Part shown: positions 7,601 through 37,340 of the stretch, piece after piece | Position numbering within the stretch: position 1 is the stretch's first letter | Layout of the letters: the number at the start of each line of letters is the position of its first letter | Virus record (IMG/VR): IMGVR_UViG_3300043774_000656 | Coordinates: 32,001-96,000 of that record | Strand: one strand, 5' to 3' | DNA length: 64,000 nucleotides | Source: a virus | Position numbers and translations under genes: made by a program | The notes under the pieces: generated by a model | Told to the model about the DNA's origin: nothing | What the model saw: only the letters and a program-made list of their open reading frames with translations | The model's database searches: none

Positions 7601-7754
7601 TTACTAGCGTTGCAGTCTCATATAAGCCTACTGAAACTTCAGGTAAATTTACACTACCTGTCCATATACCCAACATCTCATCATATGAGAAGTTAAGATC
7701 GGTTCCGTTTTTATCAAAAAAGCTTACGTATTTAAAATCTGTTGTAGCAGGCAT
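4605..7754 (-). CDS. large baseplate wedge-like protein (1049 aa)
   Basis: IGSYKGVINAIKFFGY resembles gp7-like wedge motif; PKD/Ig-like C-terminus; next to gp6-like gene. Confidence 0.55.
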   Translation of the reverse strand: MPATTDFKYVSFFDKNGTDLNFSYDEMLGIWTGSVNLPEVSVGLYETATLVILEEFLTTGGITRWGVPHYSDPNATFQATGSYDGSTWRAYWEDETDENDKFILFTFNLAQSKPKLNVVNTAIVDVDIDPTQSYTSFGQIITDDITSQSIQFNIGIVSEMEGVFERYLIIEEDGTNKMIARIKFYGEVVGEDERLTTLIQNLGYSLFEEDSPVFRTSDINEALPDFMLLNEKRKEMLLEGKNIQNFIGSYKGVINAIKFFGYNNVKLREYWLNVDSTSPNYGKYKTTTVIDVFDRTVNVNDPNTYVPNKIYKKTALFSLVYRINQVTNELDQYDIPVVTETDEFTLEEALIKLYGLKEVLRKRFLPSSSRIIDIIGEADYFGKTVTSAWNDQQRIDYLKIGIDPVFEVTPKFGYIQDLRPLNSLFDPEFTPYFLDRFVTLNDLNPEILGDIGPVLLAYFQDYGPNLNTIAQLPDKPGIPVGFPVVLENKSFTKTWIDAEVQWDELWANGVLIMDFIASNIGSGDVFIVKDVQSGKEISYTASFGDTPSQVAAGLLASFNAEYNIGDGKPWTYFEGTVVDKDNDSNFETFRLRQVIAGNFGIELKPFTQDNGAFGNNPTLSQSYASGNTLLSWDTFGQGNFYELEWRVFKDKTDESPAYEFKIRGDIATYNTVAINLPYVGFYNVELRLFDTYNNLSSKIYKDYVEVLSREVEFVGFYKFRELQYTWNSIFGMKKQPVLSEPILPGQPVSPYYPQYIWNEYGSSWDLPIAPSSSYFQGEASLYESLDRANYILNNSNPDQSLCYHFTNPEVDVYKDLYTPGPYFWNNLGAGSWDDSYHLWWQSCKVSGDTPANFRIYNVTASSSMTMQQSYPYPYTSTFLFTTSNLDTAADDLNNTTDPVFSKFIYNKVYDVDSGNNLILQFVQAVAKYTGQNGDWVDFTWQDPAIDIRYEQLTELNNPTYNDTRFLTDGIFLPRLTHLTFTYDMSKIPGKDLPIWNLRNLDSPGTDDIYFTGRWFTYLFKRSGRYELSLQLQDTNGNKKKTTKNILIIK

Positions 7755-8035
7755 TAGTTAATATGTTGATAATCTTTATTTACGCTAAATACTCTAAAAA
7801 TTCTAACCACCTTTGTAGTATTTATTAGATTAACAAAGTAGTCATTCATATAAATCGTAAAGTAATAGATTATTGGTACTCTGAGTAAGTGCTTAGATAC
7901 ACTTTTAGATGCCACAGTTTCCCTGTAGTCGTATGCTACATTTATTCTATATTCACCACCTGTTTTAGCTATAGAATAAAGACTCTTCTTTTTATAACCA
8001 AATCTGCCGTCAAGCACACTATTATTCCAAGCCAT
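7754..8035 (-). CDS. hypothetical protein (baseplate block)
   Basis: ORF tightly coupled to neighbours. Confidence 0.6.
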   Translation of the reverse strand: MAWNNSVLDGRFGYKKKSLYSIAKTGGEYRINVAYDYRETVASKSVSKHLLRVPIIYYFTIYMNDYFVNLINTTKVVRIFRVFSVNKDYQHIN

Positions 8036-8041
8036 TAGATA

Positions 8042-9922
8042 TTATTTTTTTAATTTAGCGTAATCGTCTCTGTACACGTTTTGACCTTTGTACTTATCCT
8101 TAATCTCTTGTTTAGCAGCATCCATTCTAGCCATGTTTAAAGTCAAATCTGCTTGATTTTTGAAGTATATGCCCAATGAAGAAGCTCTACCCTGTACAGG
8201 TGTAGGTTCATAGTACACACCGTTTCTATCAGTCCATCCACCTCTTATGACTGCAAGATCTCTCAGACCGGTTACAATATCACCAAACTCATCTAGACCT
8301 AAATTAGGATCTTCGTTTGGTGCAATAGGTATCTTAGTTTCAATAAGCTCTTTGTTAAAGAACACGTATCTCTTTTTATTACCTTCACCTTCCTGTAAGA
8401 ATGGTGTAGTAGGTGTAACTTTGTATGTCTTCTTTATATAGTAGCCATTTCTGATAGCTGTTTCGTTCTCTTCAGAAACAAAGAACACGCTTACAGAATC
8501 TACACCTTTGATATCTTCGATTATAGAAACTATATCGCTCTTTGGTGTTCTATCTCTGCGTCTAATTTTTATGAAATAGTCATTAAGCTTAGATCTTATT
8601 TCATTTTCTATAACACCTAGATCATAACCTTCAAATGTTCTTAAAACTATATTCAGTGCATACTTTTTAATTGTAGGATCAACGAACTGAAGTTCAGTGC
8701 TGGTCATTTGTCTACCACTTTCATTAATTACAGCTTTTAGCATTCTTTTCTCATCGTCTGTGAGTGTAAACTCTTCAAGATCGATTGTAAAATAATCATT
8801 GTCTGTAGTAACCTTTCTCTGTATGTCAGGCACTAAAAATAAATAAATGATGTTGTCGTCATCTAGATAATCATCTCCTGTTTCGTTGAAAGCATCAATG
8901 TAAGAGAAGTAATTAAATTTAGAAAGATAATACTCGTAGTTTTCTGGGTTAGCTAATACAAATGACCTGCTAGCCATAGGCGCTATAAGCTTTGTGAAAA
9001 ATGGACTTTCTTCATTTGAACCCAATGTTGGATTCTTTGAAGTTTCAATAAGTAAAAATTCGTTTAGGTCTACTTCTTCACCGTTAACATCACTACCTGG
9101 ATCTATAAATGTAAATTCAACAGGTTCTGATCTAGAGCTAATGTTACCTCCTGCACCTGCTGTAGCAAGATATTCAACATCTATGAATGCACCCCTTTCT
9201 GGGGCTTTACCAAAAAAGCCATTACCGAAAAATAGATCTAAACCTCCGGCCAAACCTGTTCTAACAATAACACCCTTTGTATCTAAAGCCATGTCATACA
9301 ATGAATCATATAATTGCCATAACTCGCCATTTACATAAACTTTCACGTTATCATTATCTACCATACCAGGTGTGTTAACGTTAAATGATTGCATAGCTTC
9401 ACCTGTTCCAACAACTCTCTGTGTCTCAAATTCACCCTGTATTATAGCACAGTATGTAAAATCTACAGTGTTCTTTTCAGCTCTGATAAAATCACCAGAA
9501 AAAGTCATGGTATACTTTATGCCATTGTCTTTGCATCTAAGTATAGTTCTATTTGAAATCAGGATGTATGGTCCTGGAAATTGAGACTGCTTACCTGGTT
9601 TAAACTTAAATCTTACTTCACCCAGTGCACTTATAGGTCTGGTTGGATTATGACCAGTAAGAGCAGCTAAACCATAAATAGATTCAAGGTTGTTTGCAGT
9701 CATGATATTGTTTTCAGTAACTGCATCTGTAATATAAAACATAATCAATTCACCGATATTTGACATTACCTTAAGTAATTGACCAAATGGTGAAGATACT
9801 GTAAAAACCTTTAGAGAACTTTGATAAGCACCTACAAGAAAGCTTATTGAGTCTTCATATATTTGCTCACCTAGTATTCTAGTTTTATGTAGAAAGTTAT
9901 AATTATCTTTAACTGTTGACAT
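8042..9922 (-). CDS. baseplate wedge subunit, T4 gp6-like
   Basis: ESIYGLAALTGHNP, LFFGNGFFGKAP, VEYLATAGAGGN motifs typical of gp6/BplJ. Confidence 0.8.
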   Translation of the reverse strand: MSTVKDNYNFLHKTRILGEQIYEDSISFLVGAYQSSLKVFTVSSPFGQLLKVMSNIGELIMFYITDAVTENNIMTANNLESIYGLAALTGHNPTRPISALGEVRFKFKPGKQSQFPGPYILISNRTILRCKDNGIKYTMTFSGDFIRAEKNTVDFTYCAIIQGEFETQRVVGTGEAMQSFNVNTPGMVDNDNVKVYVNGELWQLYDSLYDMALDTKGVIVRTGLAGGLDLFFGNGFFGKAPERGAFIDVEYLATAGAGGNISSRSEPVEFTFIDPGSDVNGEEVDLNEFLLIETSKNPTLGSNEESPFFTKLIAPMASRSFVLANPENYEYYLSKFNYFSYIDAFNETGDDYLDDDNIIYLFLVPDIQRKVTTDNDYFTIDLEEFTLTDDEKRMLKAVINESGRQMTSTELQFVDPTIKKYALNIVLRTFEGYDLGVIENEIRSKLNDYFIKIRRRDRTPKSDIVSIIEDIKGVDSVSVFFVSEENETAIRNGYYIKKTYKVTPTTPFLQEGEGNKKRYVFFNKELIETKIPIAPNEDPNLGLDEFGDIVTGLRDLAVIRGGWTDRNGVYYEPTPVQGRASSLGIYFKNQADLTLNMARMDAAKQEIKDKYKGQNVYRDDYAKLKK

Positions 9923-9936
9923 TTATTAAGTTTTAT

Positions 9937-10299
9937 TTACGCGAACACCATACCCATGTAGGTTTGACCATTTATTACTATATCTAAAACAGCCAAATCT
10001 CTTGAACCATCTTTATAGAATTTACAAGAACAGTCTACATTATATCTATTTGCCAGCATTCTACTGTATTGTTCTATCTGTGTATTAACCATACTTTCTA
10101 TTGTAGAAGCCGACATATTAGTACTAAATACTAAATCGTCTAGATTCGCACCAATGTATGGTTCACCTAGAACATCCGTTCTTCTGGTAAATAATATAAC
10201 CTCGATCTGTGTAAGAAGTAATTCTAAATCACCAAGCACTTCAATTTTGTCATTAACAAAACCAGGATCGCCTTCGATTTTAGTGTAAATGTCTGCCAT
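9937..10299 (-). CDS. baseplate wedge subunit, gp25-like
   Basis: 120 aa, ILFTRRTDVLGEPYIGANLDDLVF gp25 pattern; adjacent to gp6. Confidence 0.75.
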   Translation of the reverse strand: MADIYTKIEGDPGFVNDKIEVLGDLELLLTQIEVILFTRRTDVLGEPYIGANLDDLVFSTNMSASTIESMVNTQIEQYSRMLANRYNVDCSCKFYKDGSRDLAVLDIVINGQTYMGMVFA

Positions 10300-10302
10300 T
10301 CA

Positions 10303-11118
10303 TTAACTTGTTAAGAAGTAATCTACGCCTTCGTCTCCCTTAATCTCTTCCTTGATTGCATCAAGTTCTTCCTGACCAGCATCTCTGATCATGTCAGCAT
10401 TGAGAGTAACGTTACCCGGCATTTGATAACTAAATGTCATCAACATTGTGCCCAGTTGAGTTTTACATTTTGCCACAACATATCTGTGGAAAATCTCATC
10501 TGAATATAAAGCACAGTCTGATATAGATTCATACACACTAAGCACACAGTTGTGCTTTGGTGTTTCACCTTGTATCTTTAAAATTCTATTTAATCTATTA
10601 TAGTTGTATGATACCTTGGAATTAAGTACCTGTCTGGCCATATCAAATAAATTCTCGTTTGCTACATAATACATAAGGTTTTCACCGAGTACTGTTGTAC
10701 CTCCACCAAGGGCATATGCATTTGCAAATATGAATTTATCTAATGTAAAATCCGCGTCTAGACTAAAACCATTATTACCAGATCCAATCAAAAATTCACC
10801 TGCCTGTGTCAATTCATTTACACCGACAATATATCCTGCACCATCTGGTCTCGCAGGAGGTAGTGGTATTTCTCTTTTAGCCTTAAACAGATCTGTTGTA
10901 AACGTAGATCTAGGTATTACATAATAACCTTCCTGTACTGAGTCTTCATAGTTCTTATAAAACCATTTTTTAGTCTCAGTAATAATACGAACCATTTCCT
11001 TTTTAGGTATGGTAATAGGTATCATACAAGCGCTTGTCAATTCTGAATTGACATTGCTGATCAGCTGATCTAAACATCTACCAGCGTTTGCCGCTAATTC
11101 ATCGTTAATACTTGGCAT
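10303..11118 (-). CDS. neck protein, T4 gp13-like
   Basis: YNYNRLNRIL and KTQLGTMLMTFSYQMPGNVTLNADMI..GQEEL resemble gp13 C-terminus. Confidence 0.7.
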   Translation of the reverse strand: MPSINDELAANAGRCLDQLISNVNSELTSACMIPITIPKKEMVRIITETKKWFYKNYEDSVQEGYYVIPRSTFTTDLFKAKREIPLPPARPDGAGYIVGVNELTQAGEFLIGSGNNGFSLDADFTLDKFIFANAYALGGGTTVLGENLMYYVANENLFDMARQVLNSKVSYNYNRLNRILKIQGETPKHNCVLSVYESISDCALYSDEIFHRYVVAKCKTQLGTMLMTFSYQMPGNVTLNADMIRDAGQEELDAIKEEIKGDEGVDYFLTS

Positions 11119-12424
11119 TTATACCTGGGATTATTTTCTCAAATTTAACTACTTCAGTGCCATCAAATTTAGATAGATCTGTAATCTTACCTTCTCTGAA
11201 GATACCGTTAATCATAGTACCGTTCATAACACCATTATTACCACAGAAGTATGAATCATTCAAGGTTACACTTCTGTTGACATATGAATCTTTAAGCTTA
11301 CAGTTAGTAGCTTCACATCCGTCAAATAGGTTAGACTCATATATTTCTGTTCCTGTAAGTTCTGATGCAAACACATCGCACTTATTTAGAATACCTCTAA
11401 CCTTTGTACAGTCCACGATATCAACCTCTTCTAGCTTAAATGAACCACTTAGATCTGCATCCTTGATCTGTATCTTACCAGTGTTGGAGTCATAGTTAAT
11501 TATACCTGAAGCCATTGCGCCTTCAGTAAGTATATCAAATATCTTATCTCTGATCTTAGACCAGAATGATTTAATGTTTCTGTCATCGGTGTCTAAATTA
11601 ACCAGCAATCCAATCTTTGGGAAATTTTCTTTAAATTTCTCAAATGATCTATAGGCTTCTAGAATGTTCTGATGTTTTTCAAGTATCTTCTTGAGTTTCT
11701 TTTTATCATCCTGTGTAAATACTGGATTGGCTGCAGTCTTATAGAGTGATTCTATGAATTGATCCTGTGTAGCTAAAAGCTTATCAGTCTTCTTTTCATA
11801 ACCATCACCGCCTAGATATCTAAATTCAAGATAGTTCTTTTCAAGCTTGAGGAAGTTTACACCATAATACTTTTCGGTAGGAAATATAAAATCAGACTGA
11901 CTAACATTCTTAGCAGTATCATAGCTAAGTTTATCTACAGGTACTACAAACTTTATAGACTTGGCATATACAGAATCTTTACGATCAGGATAATCTTTAA
12001 AGATCTTATCTTCGTCAAAATCCAAAATGAATTTAAGCCTGTTTAATCTAACTAAAAAACTAGAACCTAGCTTCTCGTCATTAAATGATATATTGAAGTG
12101 TAGACCACATCTGCTATTAGTATAACCGTTCTCTTTTATCCATTTAAGAACTTTGATTAAAGTAATTCTGGCTTCCTGATATGGTTGTGATGCTGTTACT
12201 AATTCAATAAGCTTCTTACCGCCTGAATAATCCTTCTCTATCTTATAATGATCAGGTGTTACTTTAAAATCACTATGTGACTCATCAAACACGCTTATCT
12301 TTTTACCTAAATATCTGGCCAGCATTTCAGCTGTTTCCTCGGTCTTATAATTAGAATAGAACTCAAATTCATAACCAATCTTAGAGTTCATCAAGACATT
12401 TATTGTCTGCTCATTTAACAACAT
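11105..12424 (-). CDS. putative amidoligase (COOH-NH2 ligase, Amidoligase_2-like) with C-terminal beta-helix-like repeats
   Basis: IGYEFEF, KDYS, ELVT, TNSRCGLHFNIS, KYYGVN, LEFR motifs. Confidence 0.75.
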   Translation of the reverse strand: MLLNEQTINVLMNSKIGYEFEFYSNYKTEETAEMLARYLGKKISVFDESHSDFKVTPDHYKIEKDYSGGKKLIELVTASQPYQEARITLIKVLKWIKENGYTNSRCGLHFNISFNDEKLGSSFLVRLNRLKFILDFDEDKIFKDYPDRKDSVYAKSIKFVVPVDKLSYDTAKNVSQSDFIFPTEKYYGVNFLKLEKNYLEFRYLGGDGYEKKTDKLLATQDQFIESLYKTAANPVFTQDDKKKLKKILEKHQNILEAYRSFEKFKENFPKIGLLVNLDTDDRNIKSFWSKIRDKIFDILTEGAMASGIINYDSNTGKIQIKDADLSGSFKLEEVDIVDCTKVRGILNKCDVFASELTGTEIYESNLFDGCEATNCKLKDSYVNRSVTLNDSYFCGNNGVMNGTMINGIFREGKITDLSKFDGTEVVKFEKIIPGINAKY

Positions 12425-12443
12425 AGTGAAGCCAGTATTTTGA

Positions 12444-12451
12444 GTATATAT
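12444..12451 (-). promoter_or_regulatory. putative late promoter ATATATAC
   Basis: recurrent motif just upstream of amidoligase. Confidence 0.5.
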
Positions 12452-12458
12452 TTAAGAC

Positions 12459-12485
12459 AAAAAGAAAGGGGCTTGATGCCCCTTT
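12459..12485 (-). terminator. rho-independent terminator after S1 gene
   Basis: AAAGGGGC-ATCAA-GCCCCTTT hairpin followed by T-tract on minus strand. Confidence 0.75.
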
Positions 12486-12487
12486 AA

Positions 12488-13639
12488 TTATTTTTGCGTA
12501 TCTGCAGCTAAGCTCAAGAATACCTTCTTATTGACTTTGTCAAGCTTGTTTATCCTTACTCCTACTGTATCACCTTCTTTGAATTTACCTTTTAATTCAC
12601 TTACGTGGATTAGACCGGAAATACCTGGTGAAAGTTCAACAAACGCACCATACTCTTTAATGCTTGTAATTCTACCAACAACTACCGATGATGGCTTATA
12701 AACCTCTTCAGCTTTCTCCCAAGGGCTTTCTTTATAAAACTGGGTAAGAATGATCTTGAAGTTGGTAATAATTTCCTTTACATAGAACTCGAGTGTATCA
12801 CCTGGTTTAATTTGACCTGCTTCATGTTTAGCTTTCAGATCATCTGTAAGATCACTGGAGTGTATCATACCTGTAAGACATTCACTAAACTCACAGAATA
12901 CTCCATACTTTGTAGTACCTGTCACGAAGCCTGTTTGTAATTGTGCAGGATTCTCCTTTATCTTCTCTATTGCAGAAGGTATGAGCGAGTGTAAGTATTG
13001 TCTATGTGAAACAACAACTGTACTCTTTTCTTTAGAATAGTTAACAACCATTACAGGTAATTCCTTTCCAAGAAGAACTGTAAAGTCATGTAACTTATTT
13101 AGACCAGCTAAAGATCCTGGCATAAAAGCTTTAATACCGTCAATATCGACCATGTAACCAGCTGAAATCAATTCTTCAACTCTAGCTATATAGGCAACGT
13201 TGTCTTTACCAATTGCATCAATAAGCTCTTTTGTTTTCATTTCATTTACACTATCTGTGAATGATGCTGAAATGAAATCTTTAGTTTTATTCTCTCCGAT
13301 TTTTACAGAAAGTCTAGTACCAACTTTGAAAAGCTCTTTAAATTCTGCAGCTTCTTTTTTCAGGTCCATATAAGCATGTTCACGATATCCTATATCGAAA
13401 ATTGCATCATCTCCTGTAATACTAATAATTTCTGCTTCGACCAGTTGACCTTTTACTGGCTCTCTGTAATTGCTTGATCTCTTTTCATAAAGATCATAGA
13501 GTTCTTGTGCGTCTTCTCCATAATAGAATACTTTATCACCGGCTACGGTTTTAACTTTTCTATTTGGTTTTCTTTTGATTTTAGCCTGTTCTGATTCGAC
13601 TTCAAGCCAAAAACTTTCTTCGGTTTGGAAACCTGACAT
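12488..13639 (-). CDS. rpsA: phage-encoded ribosomal protein S1 homologue (about 4 S1 domains)
   Basis: GIKAFMPGSL, VVVSHRQYL, YGVFCEF..GMIHSSDL, YGAFVELSPGISGLIHVSEL motifs of bS1 domains 2-4; N-terminal D1-like FDIGYR. Confidence 0.88.
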   Translation of the reverse strand: MSGFQTEESFWLEVESEQAKIKRKPNRKVKTVAGDKVFYYGEDAQELYDLYEKRSSNYREPVKGQLVEAEIISITGDDAIFDIGYREHAYMDLKKEAAEFKELFKVGTRLSVKIGENKTKDFISASFTDSVNEMKTKELIDAIGKDNVAYIARVEELISAGYMVDIDGIKAFMPGSLAGLNKLHDFTVLLGKELPVMVVNYSKEKSTVVVSHRQYLHSLIPSAIEKIKENPAQLQTGFVTGTTKYGVFCEFSECLTGMIHSSDLTDDLKAKHEAGQIKPGDTLEFYVKEIITNFKIILTQFYKESPWEKAEEVYKPSSVVVGRITSIKEYGAFVELSPGISGLIHVSELKGKFKEGDTVGVRINKLDKVNKKVFLSLAADTQK

Positions 13640-13685
13640 AAAATAATTTTTAAAGGGTTAAACAATATACTATTATACTATCATA

Positions 13686-13693
13686 GTATATAT
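13686..13693 (-). promoter_or_regulatory. putative late promoter ATATATAC
   Basis: recurrent motif upstream of S1 gene. Confidence 0.5.
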
Positions 13694-13700
13694 CCGTCTG

Positions 13701-14084
13701 TTATACGATTGTAGCAGGTGCAGAAGGGGTTGAAGTTGCTCCACTGCCTGCACCTGAATTGGTAACTACATTAACTACCTGGCCAGGTGGTATAGTTATA
13801 GTAGCAGACTTAATGTATCTGTCTATATTGTTTACAAGTACTGGTGCAAGCTTAACAGCCATTGCTTTACCAAAAACTTCTGAAGCTTTTTCTAGATCTA
13901 CAGTCTTATTACCCTTCCTTGTATTTAGGTTTATAGGTACATCAATGCCAAAACTGGTTTGTACATTGACAACAACGTTGTCTTTAGGATCTAAGGCTCT
14001 ATTGTAAAGAACCATTGCTTCAGCTGCTGATTTAGATATAGCATCAAATAGTGATACGTAAAATGTAAGAGGTACTAATGGCAT
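13701..14084 (-). CDS. hypothetical protein, possibly spike-associated
   Basis: directly downstream of gp5-like gene. Confidence 0.5.
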   Translation of the reverse strand: MPLVPLTFYVSLFDAISKSAAEAMVLYNRALDPKDNVVVNVQTSFGIDVPINLNTRKGNKTVDLEKASEVFGKAMAVKLAPVLVNNIDRYIKSATITIPPGQVVNVVTNSGAGSGATSTPSAPATIV

Positions 14085-14095
14085 AATTTAAGTTT

Positions 14096-14905
14096 TTATA
14101 ATTGTGATGGACCGTCTATTGAAACGGAACTACTTCTTGTTTGAGGTATGGTTGCAGCTTTAATCGGCGCAGCTATTTGTGTTATTACAGGTTGTGCTGC
14201 AGTACCAAGCGCAGTCAGTGCCGCAGATAAAGGTGCTAATGGAAATATAGCACCACATACGGTAGCCTGAGCAGTAGCATACGTCTGTACAGCAATAGCT
14301 AAATTATTTATCTGATCAGCTAAAGCATTAAGTGCATCTACATTTTTATTACCTAACACTGCTGGCTCATCTGATTCATTTTCTTTGCCTATGCTTATAC
14401 TATCCTGTTGTACATGTATTACTTTACCACCGGAGTGTTGTATGAAAACAGTATTATCAGGTCGTATGTTTATTTGACTACCGTTATAATCCAACATTAA
14501 ACCTGTTTCTTCAGTAAAGAAAATCTTAATTGGACCCGGTTGAGCTTCAGTATCGTATATTATAGAATGAGCATTCGTATAAGAACCTTCTATCTCAGCT
14601 TTCAATTCATCTGAGATGTGTTGATGATAAAAGTATTCCGGTTCATACATATCACCATTATCAAAACTAATACCAACAACTGAATCGACCTTAGGCACAG
14701 AATGAAAACCAGAACCAGTTGCTGAACCTCCTGTTACCATGTTTAAAGGTCTAGCCCAAGGTAAGTCTTCGTCTAAGACATCGTCAAATTTACCAAAAAT
14801 TCTAACTTTAATCTTACCCTCAAAATCAGGATCTTGATTATCTATTACTTTACCTAACCAATTCGATGTTTTTAAATCGTCTTGAAATAAATTATTTAAT
14901 GCCAT
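14096..14905 (-). CDS. baseplate central spike, gp5-like (OB-fold N-terminus, no lysozyme domain)
   Basis: WLGKVIDNQDP..GKIKVRIFG..LPWARP..VPKVDSVVGISFDNGD motif of gp5/gpV OB domain. Confidence 0.8.
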   Translation of the reverse strand: MALNNLFQDDLKTSNWLGKVIDNQDPDFEGKIKVRIFGKFDDVLDEDLPWARPLNMVTGGSATGSGFHSVPKVDSVVGISFDNGDMYEPEYFYHQHISDELKAEIEGSYTNAHSIIYDTEAQPGPIKIFFTEETGLMLDYNGSQINIRPDNTVFIQHSGGKVIHVQQDSISIGKENESDEPAVLGNKNVDALNALADQINNLAIAVQTYATAQATVCGAIFPLAPLSAALTALGTAAQPVITQIAAPIKAATIPQTRSSSVSIDGPSQL

Positions 14906-14907
14906 AG

Positions 14908-16161
14908 TTATGATCGATAAATGTTACCTAAAGCACTAGGTGTAGCATCAGCGGCCCTATTGTTTTGTCTATTCTGTGATAATACGTCAGCCTGTTGTCC
15001 TAATGAGAGTAAAGAACCCTGCTGTAATGCACTTAAAGCATTTGATGCAGAAAATCCATATACATTACCTAATAGTAATCTATTAAATCTAGCAGCAAGA
15101 CCTTCTGTAGCATTTCTTGCTAATTGTTCTGCTGTGTTTAGGGCAGCACCTGCTAATGCAGCACCTGCATTTTTAGCCGCAGATTCCATTAAATCTCGAC
15201 GTGCATCAGGATCTTCTGCCAACTGCTTTAATTTCTCAATCATTCCAACACCATCACCTGTTTCAGGTGCTGGAAGATCACCTAGGAATGAATAATTCAT
15301 ACCTGTACCTTCATATCCTGGAGGAAGATTCATTATAGTTGGATTGATATAACTTTCATCAATGCTATCATACGTAAACTCTATTACCTGTGATGCTGGT
15401 TCAGGTGCTACATTAGATACTGAAGCAAAATTACCAAACGACTTATCCGAATCAAATTCACATTTCTTAAGTGTAAACATAATGTTTGCACCAAATTCAT
15501 TTACAACTTTTGCAGTTTCCATTGCAGCTTTTTGTGCAGGTGTTTCAATCGTGGGTAAACTTATAGGTGTAGCACTTGGGTATAGTGATGTAAGTTGATT
15601 AAATGTATTTACAGCAGCATCAAGTGCACCGGCATTTGCCTGTATGTTTCTTATTTCCTGTATGAATATAGTTACCTGGAACTTCCTTAAATTACTTGGG
15701 ATAATCTCTCTTCTAAATTCATAATCAAAGCACGCCTTTCTGTATAAGTCCATTAGAGCAGTTATCCTAAGGTCAATAGATTCAAGTGTAGTAACTTTAA
15801 GTCTAGACTCGTCTCCACCTTTATATGGATCTGAAAGTTTTTTATAGTCCCAAACTTTATCTATACCCTCAACTGTTTGCCAATACCACGGCATCCAATA
15901 ATTAGTGTCCAGTAATAATTCCTGAAACATTTTAAGATATTCAAATCTAGCACTCTGGTTATTTGCCGCTAAATAATTTAAAGCACTGCCTACCTTCAAA
16001 GAGTCTCTTACTAAGAGTGGGCTTTCTTTTGTGTCAAAGTCATTAAATAAAAGTACAAACCCTAAATATGTAGGATCATTATACTTGCCATAATCGGCCT
16101 GTAGTCCCTTTCTGAACCTTTCAATGGTCGATAAATCAAATGTTCTAGTTGCTACTGCCAT
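14908..16161 (-). CDS. putative tail tube initiator/baseplate protein
   Basis: position between gp5-like and gp27-like genes; tube-like beta pattern. Confidence 0.45.
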   Translation of the reverse strand: MAVATRTFDLSTIERFRKGLQADYGKYNDPTYLGFVLLFNDFDTKESPLLVRDSLKVGSALNYLAANNQSARFEYLKMFQELLLDTNYWMPWYWQTVEGIDKVWDYKKLSDPYKGGDESRLKVTTLESIDLRITALMDLYRKACFDYEFRREIIPSNLRKFQVTIFIQEIRNIQANAGALDAAVNTFNQLTSLYPSATPISLPTIETPAQKAAMETAKVVNEFGANIMFTLKKCEFDSDKSFGNFASVSNVAPEPASQVIEFTYDSIDESYINPTIMNLPPGYEGTGMNYSFLGDLPAPETGDGVGMIEKLKQLAEDPDARRDLMESAAKNAGAALAGAALNTAEQLARNATEGLAARFNRLLLGNVYGFSASNALSALQQGSLLSLGQQADVLSQNRQNNRAADATPSALGNIYRS

Positions 16162-16162
16162 G

Positions 16163-17680
16163 TTACGGTGTATTTGGCCACTCTCTTCTAAAGAGGTGCA
16201 TTTTTTGTCTCATTCTACCCTCGACTTCATCATAAGTGATGAATATCCTAGCTATAGTATATATGCCGGTTAATCTTTCATTTACTTTCAAATTAAGATT
16301 ACCGTTTTTAAGATCACCTTCATCACCTTTTTTATCTTTCATTTCTTCACCTCTTTCCTGGTTCAGAACCTCTTTCTGCTCCTGTACAGCAGAGTTTACA
16401 GGGCTCTGCTCATAGATAATAACCGGTAGTAGTTGATATCTATACAATGATAAATTGGTTGTTTCAAGCTCTACTTCTAAATACATTTTTTCAAGCTCAA
16501 CATTGTTCTTATAGTTAAGCATCTGTGCATAGTAATAGTTACGGTGAACATTTTTACCCTGTTTACCTACATACTTATACTTCTGTTGCTCATTATAGAT
16601 TCTTTCACCTTCAGCTGTAAGCTTACCTTTTAATGGAGCCTGATCTGGTGGCAAGTTTTCAGTAGTAAGAGGTTCAACAGTAAATGTTCTATACTCTTTA
16701 TCTACATCATCATAATATTGAATAATTCTTCGATACCCATCATTCAGGGTAATAGTAGCAGCGTTGTTGATTAGTTTATACTTTTCAATATAAAGATTAC
16801 TACCTCGCTTTGCATACTGGTTTGTTAAGTACAACTTAACCTCACTTTGCGTAACAGGCGTATCATTTTCAATGTGATTAGATATACTTGGATCTTGTAT
16901 CAAGCTACTTAAAGTATCTTCTAGTTTTTCATCAAACGTCACCTGTTTATTGACATTAACCAATGTAAGATAATAATATGGATCTATGTATGCTTTAAAA
17001 AAACTATTGTCATCTTTATACGCTGAGTCTAGTGCATCACCTAATAGTTTAAACTTAGTATCAAACGGGCAAAGCCTTTTCATTAAATCATCTGTTCTGT
17101 CTTCATTTGATGCAAAGCCTAATTGCAACTCGTCTGCAAGCGTTATAAAAAAATCATATGAATTTGCTTCTGGATATGTCTTACATGTTTCAGCATATAA
17201 TCCAGGTAATCTTAAAACACCGGTTATGTTAATTGAAACCGTGTCACTACCTCCTCCTTTTTCATCACCTCCGCCTCCACTGTATGCTTCTGAGTTACCA
17301 GCATCTGATGATACTTCGGTTATATCAAAGTCCATTCTAATAGGCTTGTAAAGAGTTTCATCTTTGCTTTTAATGTAAAGCATGACTACATCACCATCTG
17401 ATGGGTATTGACCTTTTGTAAAAGTACCTTTACTGTCTCTTACTGTAGCCTTCATATAAGGAACTATACCATCTAGATTTAGTTCAAAGTCAACTACATC
17501 TTCTTTATTAAAATCAAATCTGTTTATTCTAATTGCAGGATATTGGTCACCTGCAAATTTACTCATCCTATCATATTGCTTATCATATTCTTGACCCTCT
17601 TCTATGTTAGCCATATCAAAACTTTCAAGGCTAATCGTAGGTTCAGTAACTGTTAAAATGTTATTAGATAATGAAGGCAT
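16163..17680 (-). CDS. putative baseplate hub protein (gp27-like)
   Basis: 505 aa, C-terminal LTGIYTIARIFITY..QKMHLFRRE typical of hub proteins; synteny. Confidence 0.55.
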   Translation of the reverse strand: MPSLSNNILTVTEPTISLESFDMANIEEGQEYDKQYDRMSKFAGDQYPAIRINRFDFNKEDVVDFELNLDGIVPYMKATVRDSKGTFTKGQYPSDGDVVMLYIKSKDETLYKPIRMDFDITEVSSDAGNSEAYSGGGGDEKGGGSDTVSINITGVLRLPGLYAETCKTYPEANSYDFFITLADELQLGFASNEDRTDDLMKRLCPFDTKFKLLGDALDSAYKDDNSFFKAYIDPYYYLTLVNVNKQVTFDEKLEDTLSSLIQDPSISNHIENDTPVTQSEVKLYLTNQYAKRGSNLYIEKYKLINNAATITLNDGYRRIIQYYDDVDKEYRTFTVEPLTTENLPPDQAPLKGKLTAEGERIYNEQQKYKYVGKQGKNVHRNYYYAQMLNYKNNVELEKMYLEVELETTNLSLYRYQLLPVIIYEQSPVNSAVQEQKEVLNQERGEEMKDKKGDEGDLKNGNLNLKVNERLTGIYTIARIFITYDEVEGRMRQKMHLFRREWPNTP

Positions 17681-17682
17681 AG

Positions 17683-18222
17683 TTATACTTTTCTAGCGGT
17701 TTCTGGTTTTTTAACTTTTAAATTAGCTCCCAGAAGTATAGCATTTGGTTTAATTTCCTTTGACTTCTGGTCTGACTTTAGCATATTAGGTGGTAGATTC
17801 TCAGTTGAGCCGTTTGGGTTAGCCTTTGATTTTTCTGCAAGAAACTCAAGTCTCTTTTTATCAACAGGTGTAATCCTTTTCTTGTTTTCAAAATTAGTTC
17901 TAGGCTTCAAGTTCTTTTTGATAGGTTTATAACTAGAGAATACTGAACTGAGATCAGGTATCATAAGATTCATACCTTCCTTTATACAGAATGGATTTGA
18001 AATACCATTTGCTTTTAAAATAACATCCACAAACTCAACTGTTCCATAGTAAATAAATGAAATGATATCAGGTCTCATTACCTGATCTGAGTTTACATAA
18101 TGCATTTTAATTATCCTCGCATTCTTCGATATCATGAATGGAGGTACTGCAATGTTAATCTTCATATCACCGGTTAGGTCATCGACCACCTTAGACATAT
18201 TCTGTAATGTTTTAATTCTCAT
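17683..18222 (-). CDS. baseplate wedge protein gp53-like (LysM-like)
   Basis: RPDIISFIYYG..VILKANGISNPF..GMNLMIP motif. Confidence 0.75.
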   Translation of the reverse strand: MRIKTLQNMSKVVDDLTGDMKINIAVPPFMISKNARIIKMHYVNSDQVMRPDIISFIYYGTVEFVDVILKANGISNPFCIKEGMNLMIPDLSSVFSSYKPIKKNLKPRTNFENKKRITPVDKKRLEFLAEKSKANPNGSTENLPPNMLKSDQKSKEIKPNAILLGANLKVKKPETARKV

Positions 18223-18234
18223 AGTACTAGATTT

Positions 18235-20103
18235 TTAAGAGAAGCCAACAGCTTTAGCAAAGTTTGCATATCCTGCTTTCAAATTATCATTGAGCTTAGG
18301 GTACTTACTCACTATCTGTTCTTGGTATACCTCACCTACAGCTCCCTGTATTGTGTCAGGACCTGATAATTGAGCAGCAGCGTTGTGTCCAATATTAGAA
18401 GCATTTCTATTTGTACTACCTGTACCATTTATACTACCTGTCTGTTGAAAACCATTTGCAGCATTAGGTGCAGGTAGTTTATTGTAACCTGTACCGACGT
18501 ATGGTTGTTTACCAGCAACGTTTGTAAAATCTTCTTCACCTTCAGGTACTTGATATAATCTACCTCTACCTGCGTTAAACATCATTTCAAGATCGACTTT
18601 ATCACGATCTCGACCACTCTTTAAAGTTGTTGTTACTGTAAGTTCAGTTGGGAAGTCATCTTTACCTAGAGGTCCACCGAACTTAAATTCAGCATTCGTA
18701 CAAATAAGATTACCTATCATTGCGATTGGATTCAATGGGTTACCTACTGTAAGGTGCCATTGTCCTGTAGCAGATCCTGATAGTAATGCAGCTGCTGCTT
18801 GACCTCCCTGCGGTGTATTAAAGTTTTTCATAATCCAACCTCCAACCATGTCTGAAGCCACTTTACCGACACCTTCAACTGCACTTGCCAGTGTAAAACC
18901 ACCTGAACCGTCTCCGAATACATTGCTTATTATACCACCTAGGTCGCTGATTACACTATTGAAATACTCTCCTAGATTACCACTTCTTAATAGTTCGTGA
19001 TTACCTATAGGTTCACCAAAACCTTGACCACCGCCTCCACCGTAATATCTAGTACCTCCTCCCCAGAATGGAGCCGAATTATATGTAAGTACCAGCATGT
19101 TAGCTAGCACATCAAGCATCGCTATCTTAGGATTGATATTACCATAAGATCTTAATGAATAGTGAAAATTTATCTTAAATTCAGGAGCACAAAAAATACC
19201 ACTGTCTTTAATCATAACTCTTTTAATCACGTATAATGGACCTTCTACGAAGTTAGGATAAGTTGTCTTAACAGGATCATAACCTGCGGCAGGTGTTGGA
19301 TTTACGGCATTGGCTGAAGTATTACCAGTACCTAGTGTTGCAGCACTTGAAAAGAATGATGCTGGACTAAATCCTGTAGTACCTATTCCCATGAAACCAT
19401 TACCACTGACTGAATGTTGGGCAGACTGTAATGCTTGCATTTCAGATTCTACTTCTTTAAATTTCAACTCTGTTTTAAACTGTATAATGTCTTCAAGTTT
19501 ATTACCTGTTGCTTCACTCATCCATGTCACGGCTCTTGCCATGTCCATTTGTCTAGTATCAACAGCTTGACTTGATTTCCAGTCATAGGCAGACGGTGAA
19601 ATAATATCATCAAGTACTGGAGCATGAAATCTTCTCAGGGTAAGCATATAGTTATTAGGTATCTTACCGTGATATTTAGCATATATGAAATCGGCATAAC
19701 TATAAACCATAGCCGTATTATCTGGCAAATCATTAAAATAATTTATAATGTTTGCGGTTGTAGGTACCATAGCGAGCTTAAACTGCTCATCTGTTATAAA
19801 TCTAGATTCGGGATTGTCGCGATAGTCTTCTCCTTTAATAGCGCCACCTGTAAGCGTCTTATATTGTAACAAGACGTATCTGTTAATCATAGAAGCAGGA
19901 GCTAAACCCTGTTCACCGACTTCAGTATCTAGTACCTCAAACTTTTTAATAGGATAACCATTATCGTATTGTGAGTTTAAGAAATCACTAATGTTTTCAG
20001 ACCTATATTGATTATTCAGCTTTGCTTCTAGAACAGTAGCTGCATCATTAGACTGTGATTTAGGGCTTAAACTTGGACCTTTTGCCCCTGTTACTCTTGC
20101 CAA
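18235..20103 (-). CDS. putative baseplate/tail tube cap protein (gp48-like), TTG start
   Basis: HLTVGNPLNPIAMIGNLIC...DDFPTELTV; synteny with gp53. Confidence 0.5.
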   Translation of the reverse strand: MARVTGAKGPSLSPKSQSNDAATVLEAKLNNQYRSENISDFLNSQYDNGYPIKKFEVLDTEVGEQGLAPASMINRYVLLQYKTLTGGAIKGEDYRDNPESRFITDEQFKLAMVPTTANIINYFNDLPDNTAMVYSYADFIYAKYHGKIPNNYMLTLRRFHAPVLDDIISPSAYDWKSSQAVDTRQMDMARAVTWMSEATGNKLEDIIQFKTELKFKEVESEMQALQSAQHSVSGNGFMGIGTTGFSPASFFSSAATLGTGNTSANAVNPTPAAGYDPVKTTYPNFVEGPLYVIKRVMIKDSGIFCAPEFKINFHYSLRSYGNINPKIAMLDVLANMLVLTYNSAPFWGGGTRYYGGGGGQGFGEPIGNHELLRSGNLGEYFNSVISDLGGIISNVFGDGSGGFTLASAVEGVGKVASDMVGGWIMKNFNTPQGGQAAAALLSGSATGQWHLTVGNPLNPIAMIGNLICTNAEFKFGGPLGKDDFPTELTVTTTLKSGRDRDKVDLEMMFNAGRGRLYQVPEGEEDFTNVAGKQPYVGTGYNKLPAPNAANGFQQTGSINGTGSTNRNASNIGHNAAAQLSGPDTIQGAVGEVYQEQIVSKYPKLNDNLKAGYANFAKAVGFS

Positions 20104-20123
20104 TTAAATAAATCTTATTTTTA

Positions 20124-20131
20124 GTATATAT
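20124..20131 (-). promoter_or_regulatory. putative late promoter ATATATAC
   Basis: motif at head of baseplate operon. Confidence 0.55.
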
Positions 20132-20137
20132 TGGGGT

Positions 20138-20701
20138 TTACAGTTTTTCCGTATAATCTAGCCATTGCTTATCATCACCGGCAACTTTATCTCCAATAAA
20201 TCTTCTGAGTCTTATAAAGAACTCGGCATACGTAGGTATTCTATATTTACCCTTATATGAAGTTCTGCTTGCATGTTGCATCACAGAACGTAGTGACTTT
20301 TCAATAACATGATCTTCAACTTTATTGAAAAGGTCAAACATATCCTGTTTATATTGCTGCGTCATTATAGAATCAACAACAACCAGGAACCTTCTTTCTT
20401 TAGGACCGTTCATGTCTCTAAAGAAGTCGTCATGTGTTTTAAGCGGATTGTCTTCTGAGAATTTTAAGCGTCTAGGTTTTGAATTAAAGCTCTGTACGTA
20501 ACTCATCTTTGAAAAATGCATTCTCAGAAAATCAGATGAGTCGTAGAATTTAACAATCTTAATTAGATACTCTGGGTTAATCTCATCATACTTCACATCT
20601 TTAATTACGCCCTTGACAGGTATAAGTATATTAGGATGTGAATGGGATATTAAGAGAGAATAAACCCTTTCACCTTTTACAAAAAGCTTATGATTGAGCA
20701 T
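20138..20701 (-). CDS. hypothetical protein
   Basis: 187-aa ORF in overlapping run. Confidence 0.7.
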   Translation of the reverse strand: MLNHKLFVKGERVYSLLISHSHPNILIPVKGVIKDVKYDEINPEYLIKIVKFYDSSDFLRMHFSKMSYVQSFNSKPRRLKFSEDNPLKTHDDFFRDMNGPKERRFLVVVDSIMTQQYKQDMFDLFNKVEDHVIEKSLRSVMQHASRTSYKGKYRIPTYAEFFIRLRRFIGDKVAGDDKQWLDYTEKL

Positions 20702-21095
20702 ATTCTACTAAAACTACTTCATCAAATCGTGAAACAACTTCTTCTGGTATTTCTACACTATTCTTTTTATGATTGACTATAGTTAACATAAAAACTATTT
20801 CACTTTCATAGACCTCAGAGATCAACGACCTAATAGAGTCTACAGTTTCGCCGTCTAGGTTTTTTAATGCATACAGGATATAATCAGCATCTGTTACCGC
20901 CTTAAAAAGCTTTTTACGGATATATGAATTTATGACAAGCTCACTGGGTTTTATTCCATCTATGTCATTCTTAATAAGTTTAGATATAATGTCATGGTAA
21001 CTTACAACCTCTTCAGCTGAAGAGTTCTTGCAGTACTTCTTAAAGTCTAACTTATTTTTAGCGTAGATACAGTTAATCTTTTTCATTGAGCTCAT
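20688..21095 (-). CDS. hypothetical protein
   Basis: ORF overlapping neighbours. Confidence 0.65.
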   Translation of the reverse strand: MSSMKKINCIYAKNKLDFKKYCKNSSAEEVVSYHDIISKLIKNDIDGIKPSELVINSYIRKKLFKAVTDADYILYALKNLDGETVDSIRSLISEVYESEIVFMLTIVNHKKNSVEIPEEVVSRFDEVVLVEYAQS

Positions 21096-21420
21096 CGACT
21101 TCCTTTTTTAAGGTTTTCAGATATCTTAGTTCGGCACTAAGCACTTTTATTTTATGTTCAAGTTCTTCCTCATCTGGCAGATAACTTTTACCCCAGTCTG
21201 TCTTCATTACCAGGTTTAATTTATCAAATTTATTACCTGTCTCGATGTCAAGTTCTTCGCACAGCTCATACAAGAAGTTTATTTTACTCTTAAACTCTTT
21301 ATCGTTTATAAAGTCATAAACCACTTTCTTTTCATACTTGTCACCCGCCCCATTGATGTTATCATCGACTACAGTCTTGATAACACCATTTGAGGCTACT
21401 TCTAAAATAACTTTAACCAT
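21073..21420 (-). CDS. hypothetical protein
   Basis: ORF coupled to neighbours. Confidence 0.65.
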   Translation of the reverse strand: MVKVILEVASNGVIKTVVDDNINGAGDKYEKKVVYDFINDKEFKSKINFLYELCEELDIETGNKFDKLNLVMKTDWGKSYLPDEEELEHKIKVLSAELRYLKTLKKEVDELNEKD

Positions 21421-34327: not shown

Positions 34328-34335
34328 GTATATAT
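34328..34335 (-). promoter_or_regulatory. putative late promoter ATATATAC
   Basis: recurrent motif. Confidence 0.5.
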
Positions 34336-34340
34336 CAACT

Positions 34341-37338: not shown

Positions 37339-37340
37339 TA

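What the first reader, a model, noticed from the sequence alone, without database searches (positions are those of the whole stretch)
12488..13693. Multi-domain ribosomal protein S1 inside the baseplate/neck block, with a late-type promoter and its own terminator
Seen: 383 aa with about four S1 domains (ribosome-anchoring D1-D2 and RNA-binding D3-D4 types), an ATATATAC motif upstream and a terminator downstream. Known: S1 drives initiation on A/U-rich leaders, Bacteroidota largely do not use Shine-Dalgarno pairing, and S1 and bS21 genes have been reported in huge phages. Inference: a late-expressed phage S1 replaces host S1 and biases ribosomes toward the SD-less A-rich phage leaders seen throughout this window.
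Basis: partly seen in the sequence, partly recalled or inferred. Interest (0 to 1): 0.72.

Follow-up and report, generated by a model that had tools for sequence, protein, structure and literature searches.

The report
Phage-lineage ribosomal protein S1 gene
A large freshwater phage that probably infects Bacteroidia carries its own shortened copy of ribosomal protein S1, an old and well-kept phage gene with its own promoter and terminator inside the tail-gene block; genes like it have been reported in huge phages, so it is a well-documented new member, not a new kind.

Summary
Window 12488-13639 (minus strand) encodes a 383-aa protein with two N-terminal helices and four S1/OB domains, colinear with domains D1-D4 of E. 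coli bS1. A GATATATAC motif lies 47 nt upstream and a strong hairpin terminator follows the stop. The gene sits between baseplate-hub and neck/wedge genes of a 123-kb phage contig (about 45% complete) whose genes lack Shine-Dalgarno sites and have A-rich leaders.

New here:
- The gene is not a recent host capture. All 29 phage S1 proteins tested, including those of published huge phages and Lak phages, form one long-stemmed clade apart from cellular bS1.
- In every related viral locus examined it keeps the same place, always just upstream of an amidoligase-like gene.
- It is under strong purifying selection.
- Its promoter motif and an S1-specific A-rich leader are conserved.
- Its N-terminus resembles the aromatic anchor helix of Bacteroidia bS1, and the D1 loop residues that contact uS2 in E. 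coli are kept.

Ribosome binding, late timing and a preference for phage mRNAs remain inferred. Phage "possible rpS1" genes linked to SD-less genomes are already in print (Al-Shayeb 2020), so I rate this a new member of a known kind, of moderate interest.

The parts
13686..13694 (-). Promoter-like motif GATATATAC, 47 nt upstream of the ATG
   Evidence: every match is on the coding strand. ATATATA[AC] lies at -30 to -55 upstream of S1 in 36 of 37 distinct related loci.
13640..13685 (-). 5' leader. It holds a tandem ATAGTATA pair and the S1-specific element TAACCCTTTAAAAA (13647-13660). It has no SD site and no significant fold.
   Evidence: the element AAC(C)CTT(T)AAAAA is kept in all 36 distinct related leaders; it is the only intergenic copy in the 123-kb contig; z -0.09.
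12488..13639 (-). CDS of the 383-aa phage S1 protein (bS1 homologue, D1-D4)
13577..13621 (-). N-terminal helix 1 (residues 7-21) with F10-W11. It resembles the aromatic N-terminal helix of Bacteroidia bS1.
   Evidence: model. W at this column in 62 of 80 family members. PMC13000457.
13475..13510 (-). Helix 2 (residues 44-55) with Y48 and Y51, just before D1. It lies where the E. coli S2-binding helix lies.
   Evidence: Y51 in 69 of 80; helix 2 aligns with the helix before D1 of the 591-aa bS1 chain 9zcd_A.
13262..13444 (-). S1 domain D1 (residues 66-126). Its loop D82-I-G84-Y-R86 aligns with E. coli D39-A-G41-L-K43.
13007..13192 (-). S1 domain D2 (residues 150-211) with the D2-type AFMPGS motif. 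It is one of the two most conserved parts of the family.
12743..12937 (-). S1 domain D3 (residues 235-299), with the signature TGFVTGTTKYGVFCEF..CLTGMIH. It is highly conserved.
12509..12685 (-). S1 domain D4 (residues 319-377), the best Pfam S1 match
   Evidence: (residues 318-377).
12455..12485 (-). Intrinsic terminator: an 8-bp G+C-rich stem with a 5-nt loop, followed by CUUUUUGUCUU
12444..12452 (-). Next promoter-like motif, AATATATAC, 20 nt upstream of the amidoligase-like gene
11105..12424 (-). Invariant downstream neighbour: a 439-aa Amidoligase_2-like protein with a pentapeptide-like C-terminal half

Best explanation
The gene encodes a phage-lineage version of ribosomal protein bS1, cut down to the N-terminal anchor plus domains D1-D4. 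It is transcribed on its own from a phage-specific RATATATAC promoter, probably middle or late. Its mRNA is short and monocistronic, with an unstructured, very A-rich leader, and ends at an intrinsic terminator. The most likely mechanism has three steps. (1) The protein docks on the host Bacteroidia 30S subunit at the bS1 site, using its helix-loop-helix N-terminus and D1-D2. (2) D3-D4 capture A-rich, SD-less leaders. (3) This sustains or redirects translation initiation while virion proteins are made in bulk. Shown: homology, domain order, conservation, the transcription-unit signals, the SD-less A-rich leaders, vertical inheritance and purifying selection. Inferred: 30S binding, timing, and any preference for phage mRNAs.
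For: - Colinear D1-D4 homology to bS1. A four-OB model whose best structural matches are ribosome-bound bS1.
- E. coli D39/G41/K43, which contact S2 (PMC4288201, passages read), align with D82/G84/R86. In the family, D82 is kept in 74 of 80 and R/K86 in 67 of 80.
- The N-terminus is helix-loop-helix like residues 4-40 of F. johnsoniae bS1, whose aromatic helix FLANFNWHNF contacts uS8 (PMC13000457, passages read). The phage family has W at the matching column in 62 of 80 and Y51 in 69 of 80.
- The aromatic-x-W motif was found in the 3 sampled bS1 of named Bacteroidia families (Saprospiraceae, Chitinophagaceae, Flavobacteriaceae). It was absent from the 30 unnamed Bacteroidota-phylum bS1 and from one truncated call.
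- dN/dS is 0.04-0.10.
- The phage's genes are SD-less with A peaks at -11 to -14. [quoted passage not shown]
- The promoter motif and an S1-specific leader are conserved across relatives that share only about 40% protein identity.
- Precedent: phage bS21 genes sit among core structural genes and are transcribed with them in freshwater Bacteroidetes phages (PMC9723584, passages read).
- bS21 co-occurs with S1 in 3 of 5 related records.
Against: - Scores are far below the curated bS1 cut-offs.
- The phage clade sits on a very long stem (2.27 changes per column) outside cellular bS1, which fits a change of function.
- D5-D6 are missing.
- HMMER does not align the N-terminal helices to E. coli, and the F5/F9 equivalents are ambiguous.
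- One subclade (18 of 80) lacks the W.
- Host leaders are of the same A-rich type, so selectivity is unexplained.
- No expression or binding data exist.
Confidence: 0.55

Rival explanations
1. It works off the ribosome as an RNA-binding factor. It could be an RNA chaperone, a protector of phage mRNAs against host RNases, or a cofactor of a phage enzyme, much as host S1 serves T4 RegB and Q-beta replicase. It would use D3-D4 for RNA and D1-D2 for a phage protein partner.
For: - A long stem separates the clade from cellular bS1.
- The strongest conservation is in D2-D3, with phage-specific signatures, not in the N-terminus.
- In E. coli the same D1-D2 surface binds Q-beta replicase (PMC4288201; 4q7j and 4r71 are among the fold matches).
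- Al-Shayeb et al. left open 'on or off the ribosome'.
Against: - The Bacteroidia-like N-terminal aromatic helix and the D1 loop are kept.
- The gene co-occurs with phage bS21 in relatives.
- No partner enzyme has been identified.
Confidence: 0.25
2. It is a virion-associated protein. It would be made with the tail and baseplate proteins, packaged, and either structural or injected with the DNA to act on host ribosomes or RNA at the start of infection.
For: - It holds a fixed place between the baseplate hub and neck genes in 51 of 51 S1-seeded loci and in LR756500.
- It shares a promoter motif with neighbouring tail genes.
Against: - In the larger huge phages and in Lak, the gene lies away from these structural genes (no neighbour match within 8 kb).
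- It has its own promoter and terminator.
- The sequence is that of an RNA-binding bS1 homologue.
- No virion proteome exists for any relative.
Confidence: 0.1
3. It is a recently captured host rpsA fragment, a passenger gene with no specialised role.
For: The gene is annotated as 'small subunit ribosomal protein S1' by a source. PhiMa05 shows that host-derived bS1 genes do occur in phages (PMC13157829).
Against: - Identity to the 34 sampled Bacteroidota bS1 is only 25-31%.
- The phage clade is monophyletic (SH-aLRT 100).
- Its divergence across relatives matches that of the structural neighbours.
- dN/dS is 0.04-0.10.
- Regulatory signals are conserved.
Confidence: 0.03

Closest known systems
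Cellular ribosomal protein bS1 (rpsA) of E. coli and of Bacteroidia such as Flavobacterium johnsoniae
   Same: - Tandem S1/OB domains in the order D1-D4.
- The D2 motif AF(L/M)PGS.
- The D1 loop D-x-G-x-K/R.
- An N-terminal helix just before D1.
- A Bacteroidia-like aromatic helix with W at the extreme N-terminus.
- A gene with an A/U-rich leader and no SD site.
   Different: - 383 aa against about 560-640 aa, with no D5-D6.
- 25-31% identity.
- Scores below the curated family cut-offs.
- A separate long-branch clade.
- A longer loop between the two N-terminal helices, with a phage-specific motif (N..VKT..G.KV..).
- Encoded inside a phage tail-gene block.
'Possible rpS1' genes of huge phages (Al-Shayeb et al. 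2020, PMC7162821) and of Lak megaphages
   Same: - Same clade in my tree: LR756500, LR745206, LR756501, LR756502, LR756504, Lak-C1 and Lak-B5.
- SD-less genomes.
- Bacteroidota-type hosts.
- LR756500 keeps the same gene order.
   Different: - This one comes from a smaller phage: a 123-kb contig estimated 45% complete.
- It is the type of a very abundant aquatic lineage where the gene is fixed next to an amidoligase-like gene in the baseplate/neck block.
- The larger huge phages and Lak carry it elsewhere in the genome.
Phage-encoded bS21 placed among core structural genes and transcribed with them (Chen et al. 2022, PMC9723584)
   Same: - A ribosomal initiation protein encoded in the structural module of freshwater Bacteroidetes phages.
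- Proposed to substitute into host ribosomes during late protein production.
   Different: - A different ribosomal protein.
- Expression is shown for bS21 but not for this S1.
- Chen et al. state that their phages lack other ribosomal protein genes.
bS1 of Microcystis jumbo phage PhiMa05 (PMC13157829)
   Same: A phage-borne bS1 homologue.
   Different: In the paper's trees PhiMa05 bS1 groups with bS1 of a cellular lineage (Vampirovibrio), which implies capture from such a host. The gene here belongs to an old phage-only clade.

Membership tests
Ribosomal protein bS1 (rpsA; TIGR00717, NF004952) | Tandem S1 domains colinear with D1-D4 of bS1 | tested here: met
   profile positions 60-381 align with E. 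coli residues 13-346; four OB domains.
Ribosomal protein bS1 (rpsA; TIGR00717, NF004952) | Score above the curated equivalog cut-off | tested here: not met
   170.3 bits against 524 (NF004952), 150.7 against 577 (TIGR00717), 140.6 against 368 (NF005208).
Ribosomal protein bS1 (rpsA; TIGR00717, NF004952) | Six-domain length, as in Gram-negative and Bacteroidota bS1 (D5-D6 present) | tested here: not met
   The protein is 383 aa and ends after D4. The ORFs called for the 34 sampled Bacteroidota bS1 are 580-799 aa; start codons were not curated and one is a fusion.
Ribosomal protein bS1 (rpsA; TIGR00717, NF004952) | D1 loop residues that contact S2 (E. coli D39, K43) | tested here: met
   D82 aligns with D39, G84 with G41 and R86 with K43. 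D in 74 of 80, R/K in 67 of 80.
Ribosomal protein bS1 (rpsA; TIGR00717, NF004952) | N-terminal helix with two stacking aromatic residues (E. coli F5, F9), essential for S2 binding | tested here: inconclusive
   Helix 44-55 carries Y48 and Y51 about 10 residues before D1. Y51 is kept in 69 of 80 and Y48 in 37 of 80. The HMMER alignment to E. coli does not reach this helix.
Ribosomal protein bS1 (rpsA; TIGR00717, NF004952) | Bacteroidia-type N-terminal aromatic helix that contacts uS8 (FLANFNWHNF in F. johnsoniae) | tested here: inconclusive
   F10-W11 lie in helix 7-21. W is kept in 62 of 80. A similar motif occurs in 3 sampled Bacteroidia bS1. The likeness rests on motif and position only.
Ribosomal protein bS1 (rpsA; TIGR00717, NF004952) | Branches among cellular bS1 in a tree | tested here: not met
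   the 29 phage rows form one clade (SH-aLRT 100, stem 2.27) outside the 34 Bacteroidota rows and the 2 proteobacterial rows; a phage-plus-Bacteroidia clade is not rejected (p-AU 0.08).
Ribosomal protein bS1 (rpsA; TIGR00717, NF004952) | Physically part of the 30S subunit | not testable with these tools
   This needs co-sedimentation or cryo-EM.
Phage 'possible rpS1' of huge phages (Al-Shayeb 2020) | Homologous to the S1 genes of the published huge phages | tested here: met
   LR756500 45%, LR745206 38%, LR756502 36%, LR756504 35%, LR756501/LR756503 30%, Lak 28-30%; they form one clade.
Phage 'possible rpS1' of huge phages (Al-Shayeb 2020) | Phage genome rarely uses Shine-Dalgarno sites | tested here: met
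   10 of 154 genes carry a 4-mer SD core (background 5.8%), and 2 of 154 carry a 5-mer.
Phage 'possible rpS1' of huge phages (Al-Shayeb 2020) | Genome over 200 kb | tested here: inconclusive
   a 123,304-bp linear contig with a CheckV completeness of 45%.
Phage late promoter (T4-type: a single A+T-rich element, no -35) | A short A+T-rich motif upstream of late genes, distinct from host-type promoters | tested here: met
   RATATATAC occurs only on the coding strand, in the tail/baseplate block and further blocks. A different TTTG...TATATTTAC class lies in the 49-62 kb block.
Phage late promoter (T4-type: a single A+T-rich element, no -35) | Active late in infection, dependent on a phage factor | not testable with these tools
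   No time course is available.

The most novel reading that the evidence does not exclude
The phage S1 is an ancient ribosomal-protein paralogue owned by phages. It mimics the Bacteroidia-specific N-terminal anchor of bS1 and displaces host bS1, building phage-specialised 30S subunits during virion production. It controls its own synthesis through the conserved TAACC(C)TTTAAAAA leader. It works as a fixed two-gene module with the adjacent amidoligase-like enzyme, which may covalently modify it or a host ribosomal protein.
Probability: 0.12. Interest if true: 0.8.

Novelty: new member of a known kind. Interest (0 to 1): 0.48.

Why it matters
Whether phage-encoded S1 proteins are true ribosomal proteins has been open since they were seen in viromes (PMC3877843) and in huge phages (PMC7162821). 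Mizuno et al. set S1 aside as ambiguous (PMC6375957).

This locus gives the question a clean test case:
- a compact four-domain protein with an anchor-like N-terminus;
- defined promoter, leader and terminator;
- at least 551 viral contigs carrying the linked neighbour gene;
- a probable host class (Bacteroidia) for which purified in-vitro initiation systems and ribosome structures exist.

It also shows that the gene is an old core gene of a phage lineage and not a host pick-up. That changes how such 'auxiliary' translation genes should be read.

Tried and rejected
- PHROGs search of the protein: no family.
- First genome-contig scan with the single protein: nothing. The profile scan gave 5 loci. 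Two are phage-like contigs binned into MAGs (L054 Flavobacteriaceae, L055 Erysipelotrichaceae).
- Complex prediction of residues 1-135 with F. johnsoniae uS2: no verdict. The score was 0.72, but a control with chain 1 replaced scored 0.66. I did not use it as evidence either way.
- RNA evidence: one metatranscriptome run (X20) gave only 6 short contigs over window 6000-22000, none inside S1. This says nothing about expression or transcript ends.
- Leader RNA structure: not different from shuffles (z -0.09).
- Origin from Bacteroidia: the free tree does not show it, and the AU test does not reject it (p 0.08). It stays unresolved.
- bS21 in the window's own contig: none in the 123 kb held. The contig is incomplete, so absence is not shown.
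- Supplementary tables of PMC7162821, which list the phages carrying rpS1 and their ribosome-binding sites, could not be read. They may already list close relatives of this gene.
- Searches for prior description of S1 in the baseplate block or paired with an amidoligase found nothing beyond the papers cited.
Full report
**1. What is there**

The ORF at 12488-13639 on the minus strand encodes 383 aa and starts at the first start codon of its frame.
- Pfam finds S1 domains (E 2.1e-25, three stretches).
- NCBIfam bS1 models match residues 22-377 to model positions 7-373 of 580 at E 5.2e-50. The score is far below every curated equivalog cut-off.
- PHROGs has no family for it.
- A profile of 18 family members aligns colinearly with E. 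coli bS1 residues 13-346, that is D1 to D4. It also aligns with a 591-aa bS1 chain, 9zcd_A, from residue 20.
- An AlphaFold2 model built from 80 sequences has mean pLDDT 82.3 and pTM 0.55. It shows helix 7-21, a loop, helix 44-55, and four OB domains at about 66-126, 150-211, 235-299 and 319-377.
- Its best Foldseek matches in the PDB are ribosome-bound bS1: 9gut_B at E 1.1e-25, and D1-D2 fragments at TM 0.66-0.72 normalised to the target.

**2. Transcription signals**

- ATATATAC lies at 13686-13693, 47 nt before the ATG.
- The window holds 10 copies against 4.33 expected on both strands, and all 10 are on the coding strand. The wider form is RATATATAC.
- By my own ORF calls, four copies lie in non-coding DNA within 50 nt upstream of an ORF start. 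Two of these abut the ATG. Two more lie in non-coding DNA 94 and 233 nt upstream. The remaining four fall inside a called ORF: three inside the preceding gene, 95-130 nt before the next start, and one in a probably spurious opposite-strand ORF.
- They occur in the tail/baseplate block and in a few further places.
- A second, unrelated class, TTTG-N(about 19)-TATATTTACACCATAACAATCAACAA-ATG, marks about 15 genes, mostly at 49-62 kb. It resembles the Bacteroidia housekeeping promoter. The consensus TTTG / TAnnTTTG is recalled from memory; papers containing the term were only listed.
- Two promoter classes are therefore real. That the RATATATAC class is 'late' is inference from where it lies.
- Downstream of the stop, an 8-bp G+C-rich hairpin with a T-run folds at -13 kcal/mol (z -3.07; 0 of 200 shuffles as good). 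A second RATATATAC follows directly and serves the next gene.

**3. The phage and its host**

- The window is part of a 123,304-bp linear viral contig that CheckV rates 45% complete.
- Neighbouring genes are a baseplate wedge, a head-tail adaptor and a gp5-type hub.
- The wedge protein's relatives are the huge phages LR7565xx, the Lak phages of Prevotella, and jumbo phages of Tenacibaculum, Chryseobacterium, Flavobacterium and Sphingomonas.
- Only 10 of 154 called genes have a 4-mer SD core at -20 to -5, which is 6.5% against a 5.8% background. Leaders are G-poor, with A peaks of 56-67% at -11 to -14 and smaller peaks at -3, -5 and -7.
- This is broadly the pattern reported for F. johnsoniae: A at -3, -6, -12 and -13 (quoted in PMC13000457).
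- Near-identical DNA is held by runs labelled lake, freshwater and estuary metagenomes.
- A Bacteroidia host is therefore likely but not proven.

**4. Relatives and inheritance**

- The protein search returned 1403 hits at E <= 0.001 among 5730 candidates. The best 120 listed are 246-441 aa long, nearly all about 360-440 aa, on contigs up to 219 kb.
- In IMG/VR, 51 distinct loci encode a relative at 30-88% identity.
- In all 51, S1 is followed by the 439-aa gene and then (where the locus reaches that far) by the adaptor; the 120-aa and wedge genes follow too, except in the most divergent locus, L051.
- The hub gene is detected upstream in 43 of 51. Seven of the other eight lack enough upstream sequence. 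The most divergent, L051, has room but no detectable hub (my reading of its table).
- S1 diverges in step with its structural neighbours: about 41% identity where the wedge is about 44% and the adaptor about 44%.
- Seeding from the neighbour gene gives the same picture. At least 551 viral contigs hold a relative of it. Of the best 80 loci, 74 have room upstream. Of those, 73 carry S1 directly upstream, and the 74th carries it behind a 1-kb insert.
- LR756500 (462 kb) keeps the same gene order with insertions. LR745206, LR756502, LR756504, LR756501 and the two Lak phages show no neighbour match within 8 kb.
- dN/dS between the window and its two closest relatives is 0.04 and 0.10, at dS of about 1.5-1.6.

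**5. Phylogeny**

The tree has 70 rows and 351 columns from residue 40 onward (IQ-TREE quick search, LG+C20+F+G4). The rows are:
- 22 environmental family members, including the window;
- 5 huge-phage and 2 Lak sequences;
- 34 bS1 from genomes of the phylum of a Flavobacteriaceae MAG;
- E. coli and Acinetobacter rpsA;
- an IspH-S1 fusion;
- 4 Bacillota S1.

Three other Bacillota loci gave no usable ORF and were left out.

Results:
- All 29 phage rows form one clade (SH-aLRT 100) on a stem of 2.27 changes per column.
- The 34 Bacteroidota rows form one group (SH-aLRT 84), joined to the proteobacterial pair (SH-aLRT 95).
- The tool warns about long branches.
- An AU test does not reject a clade of the phage rows plus the four named Bacteroidia rows (log-likelihood 13.6 lower, p 0.08).

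The gene is therefore an old, phage-only lineage. Its cellular source is unresolved.

**6. Anchoring features**

In E. coli, binding to S2 depends on F5 and F9 of the N-terminal helix. D39 and K43 of D1 add minor salt bridges (PMC4288201, passages read).
- The ungapped HMMER alignment puts D82, G84 and R86 on D39, G41 and K43.
- Across 80 family members, D82 is D in 74 and position 86 is R or K in 67.
- The alignment to E. coli stops short of the helix. The model places helix 44-55, with Y48 and Y51, about ten residues before D1. Y51 is kept in 69 of 80 and Y48 in 37 of 80.

In F. johnsoniae, residues 4-40 of bS1 form a helix-loop-helix on the 30S subunit. The aromatic helix FLANFNWHNF contacts uS8, and this part becomes disordered when bS21 is missing (PMC13000457, passages read).
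- The phage protein has the same layout, with a longer loop. Helix 7-21 carries F10-W11.
- W is present at that column in 62 of 80. The other 18 form the subgroup whose N-terminus has a DPF(D/E)T-like motif instead.
- Lak S1 and L051 carry FNW or FDW.
- Among the sampled cellular bS1, an aromatic-x-W motif before D1 occurs only in the Saprospiraceae, Chitinophagaceae and Flavobacteriaceae proteins. It was not found in the 30 unnamed phylum members or in one truncated call.

This is a resemblance of motif and position, not a demonstrated contact.

bS21 genes occur in 3 of 5 related records searched: a 205-kb relative, LR745206 and LR756501. They were not found in LR756500, in Lak-C1, or in the window's own incomplete contig.

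**7. The leader**

- Upstream of S1, ATATATA[AC] lies at -30 to -55 in 36 of 37 distinct related loci. The 37th is cut off at its start.
- Between the motif and the ATG, all 36 distinct relatives keep AAC(C)CTT(T)AAAAA followed by an A-run. A reaches 73-92% at -12 to -8.
- In the window's contig this 14-mer, allowing two mismatches, has no other intergenic copy.
- The window, L002 and L003 share an identical 31-nt stretch from the promoter motif onward, holding a tandem ATAGTATA, although synonymous sites in the CDS are saturated.
- The leader has no significant fold.
- A gene-specific control element is likely. By analogy with E. coli rpsA, whose autoregulation is noted in PMC13157829, it may be an autoregulatory site. 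This is inference.

**8. The neighbour**

The 439-aa protein downstream has no Pfam hit itself at E <= 0.01. However, 7 of 13 homologues match PF12224 Amidoligase_2 (best E 1.5e-5) and one matches Pentapeptide. The Atlas points the same way (a lead only). Its strict pairing with S1 is unexplained.

**9. Literature**

- Al-Shayeb et al. 2020 (passages read) report S1 among the translation genes of huge phages. They note proteins with up to six S1 domains. They state that phages with 'possible rpS1s' rarely have SD sequences, and that true rpS1 is hard to confirm.
- Mizuno et al. 2019 excluded the S1 domain as ambiguous.
- Roux et al. 2013 saw S1 in viromes and asked for genomic context.
- Chen et al. 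2022 show phage bS21 among structural genes, transcribed with them, in freshwater Bacteroidetes phages.
- My searches found no description of S1 fixed in a baseplate/neck block, of its pairing with an amidoligase, or of the N-terminal likeness to Bacteroidia bS1.
- Supplementary tables were closed and may list relatives.

**10. Verdict**

- New in this work: vertical inheritance, fixed synteny, conserved signals and anchor-like features.
- Ribosome binding, timing and selectivity remain to be tested.
- I rate it a new member of a known kind, of moderate interest.

Noticed in passing
window 11105-12424 (-): A 439-aa gene lies directly downstream of S1 in every related locus examined. It is Amidoligase_2-like: 7 of 13 homologues match PF12224, and the C-terminal half looks like pentapeptide repeats. 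Its role and its link to S1 are unknown.
   Followed up: partly
window about 49000-62000 and 29835 (both strands): About 15 genes are preceded by a near-identical element of about 45 nt, TTTG-N(about 19)-TATATTTACACCATAACAATCAACAA-ATG. It looks like a Bacteroidia-type host promoter plus a shared leader, and probably marks the early gene class.
   Followed up: partly
window 34328-34336 and 37331-37339 (-): Here the RATATATAC motif lies only 3 nt from an ATG. If it is a -10-like element, these small genes would give leaderless or nearly leaderless mRNAs.
   Followed up: no
window 13664-13694 (-); L002, L003 upstream of S1: A 31-nt stretch (the promoter motif plus a tandem ATAGTATA) is identical in three phages whose S1 coding sequences have dS of 1.5-1.7. 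More distant relatives lack this insert.
   Followed up: partly
G070:C1:3039-3188; LR745206 296654-296806; LR756501 542936-543088: Ribosomal protein bS21 genes occur in 3 of 5 related phage records that also carry S1. None was found in LR756500, in Lak-C1, or in the window's own incomplete contig.
   Followed up: partly
L054 (PAUJ01000008.1) and L055 (ONCO01000010.1): Two phage-like contigs carrying this S1 (L054 also the amidoligase-like gene, L055 the baseplate genes) are binned into MAGs labelled Flavobacteriaceae and Erysipelotrichaceae. The first MAG also has its own 633-aa bS1 on another contig. In L055 the wedge and 120-aa genes lie on the opposite strand next to S1.
   Followed up: partly
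G000:C1:96350-96439 (just beyond the window's end): A single tRNA-Leu(GAG) gene is the only tRNA in the 123-kb contig. There is none inside the window.
   Followed up: no
window 28192-29517, 31108-32523, 38351-39469, 44083-45306 (-): An ATP-dependent DNA ligase, a DNA helicase, a thymidylate synthase and a virion structural protein (phrog_1645) lie on the same strand. Nearly all genes of the window are on the minus strand, and the strand switches near window 56-62 kb.
   Followed up: no
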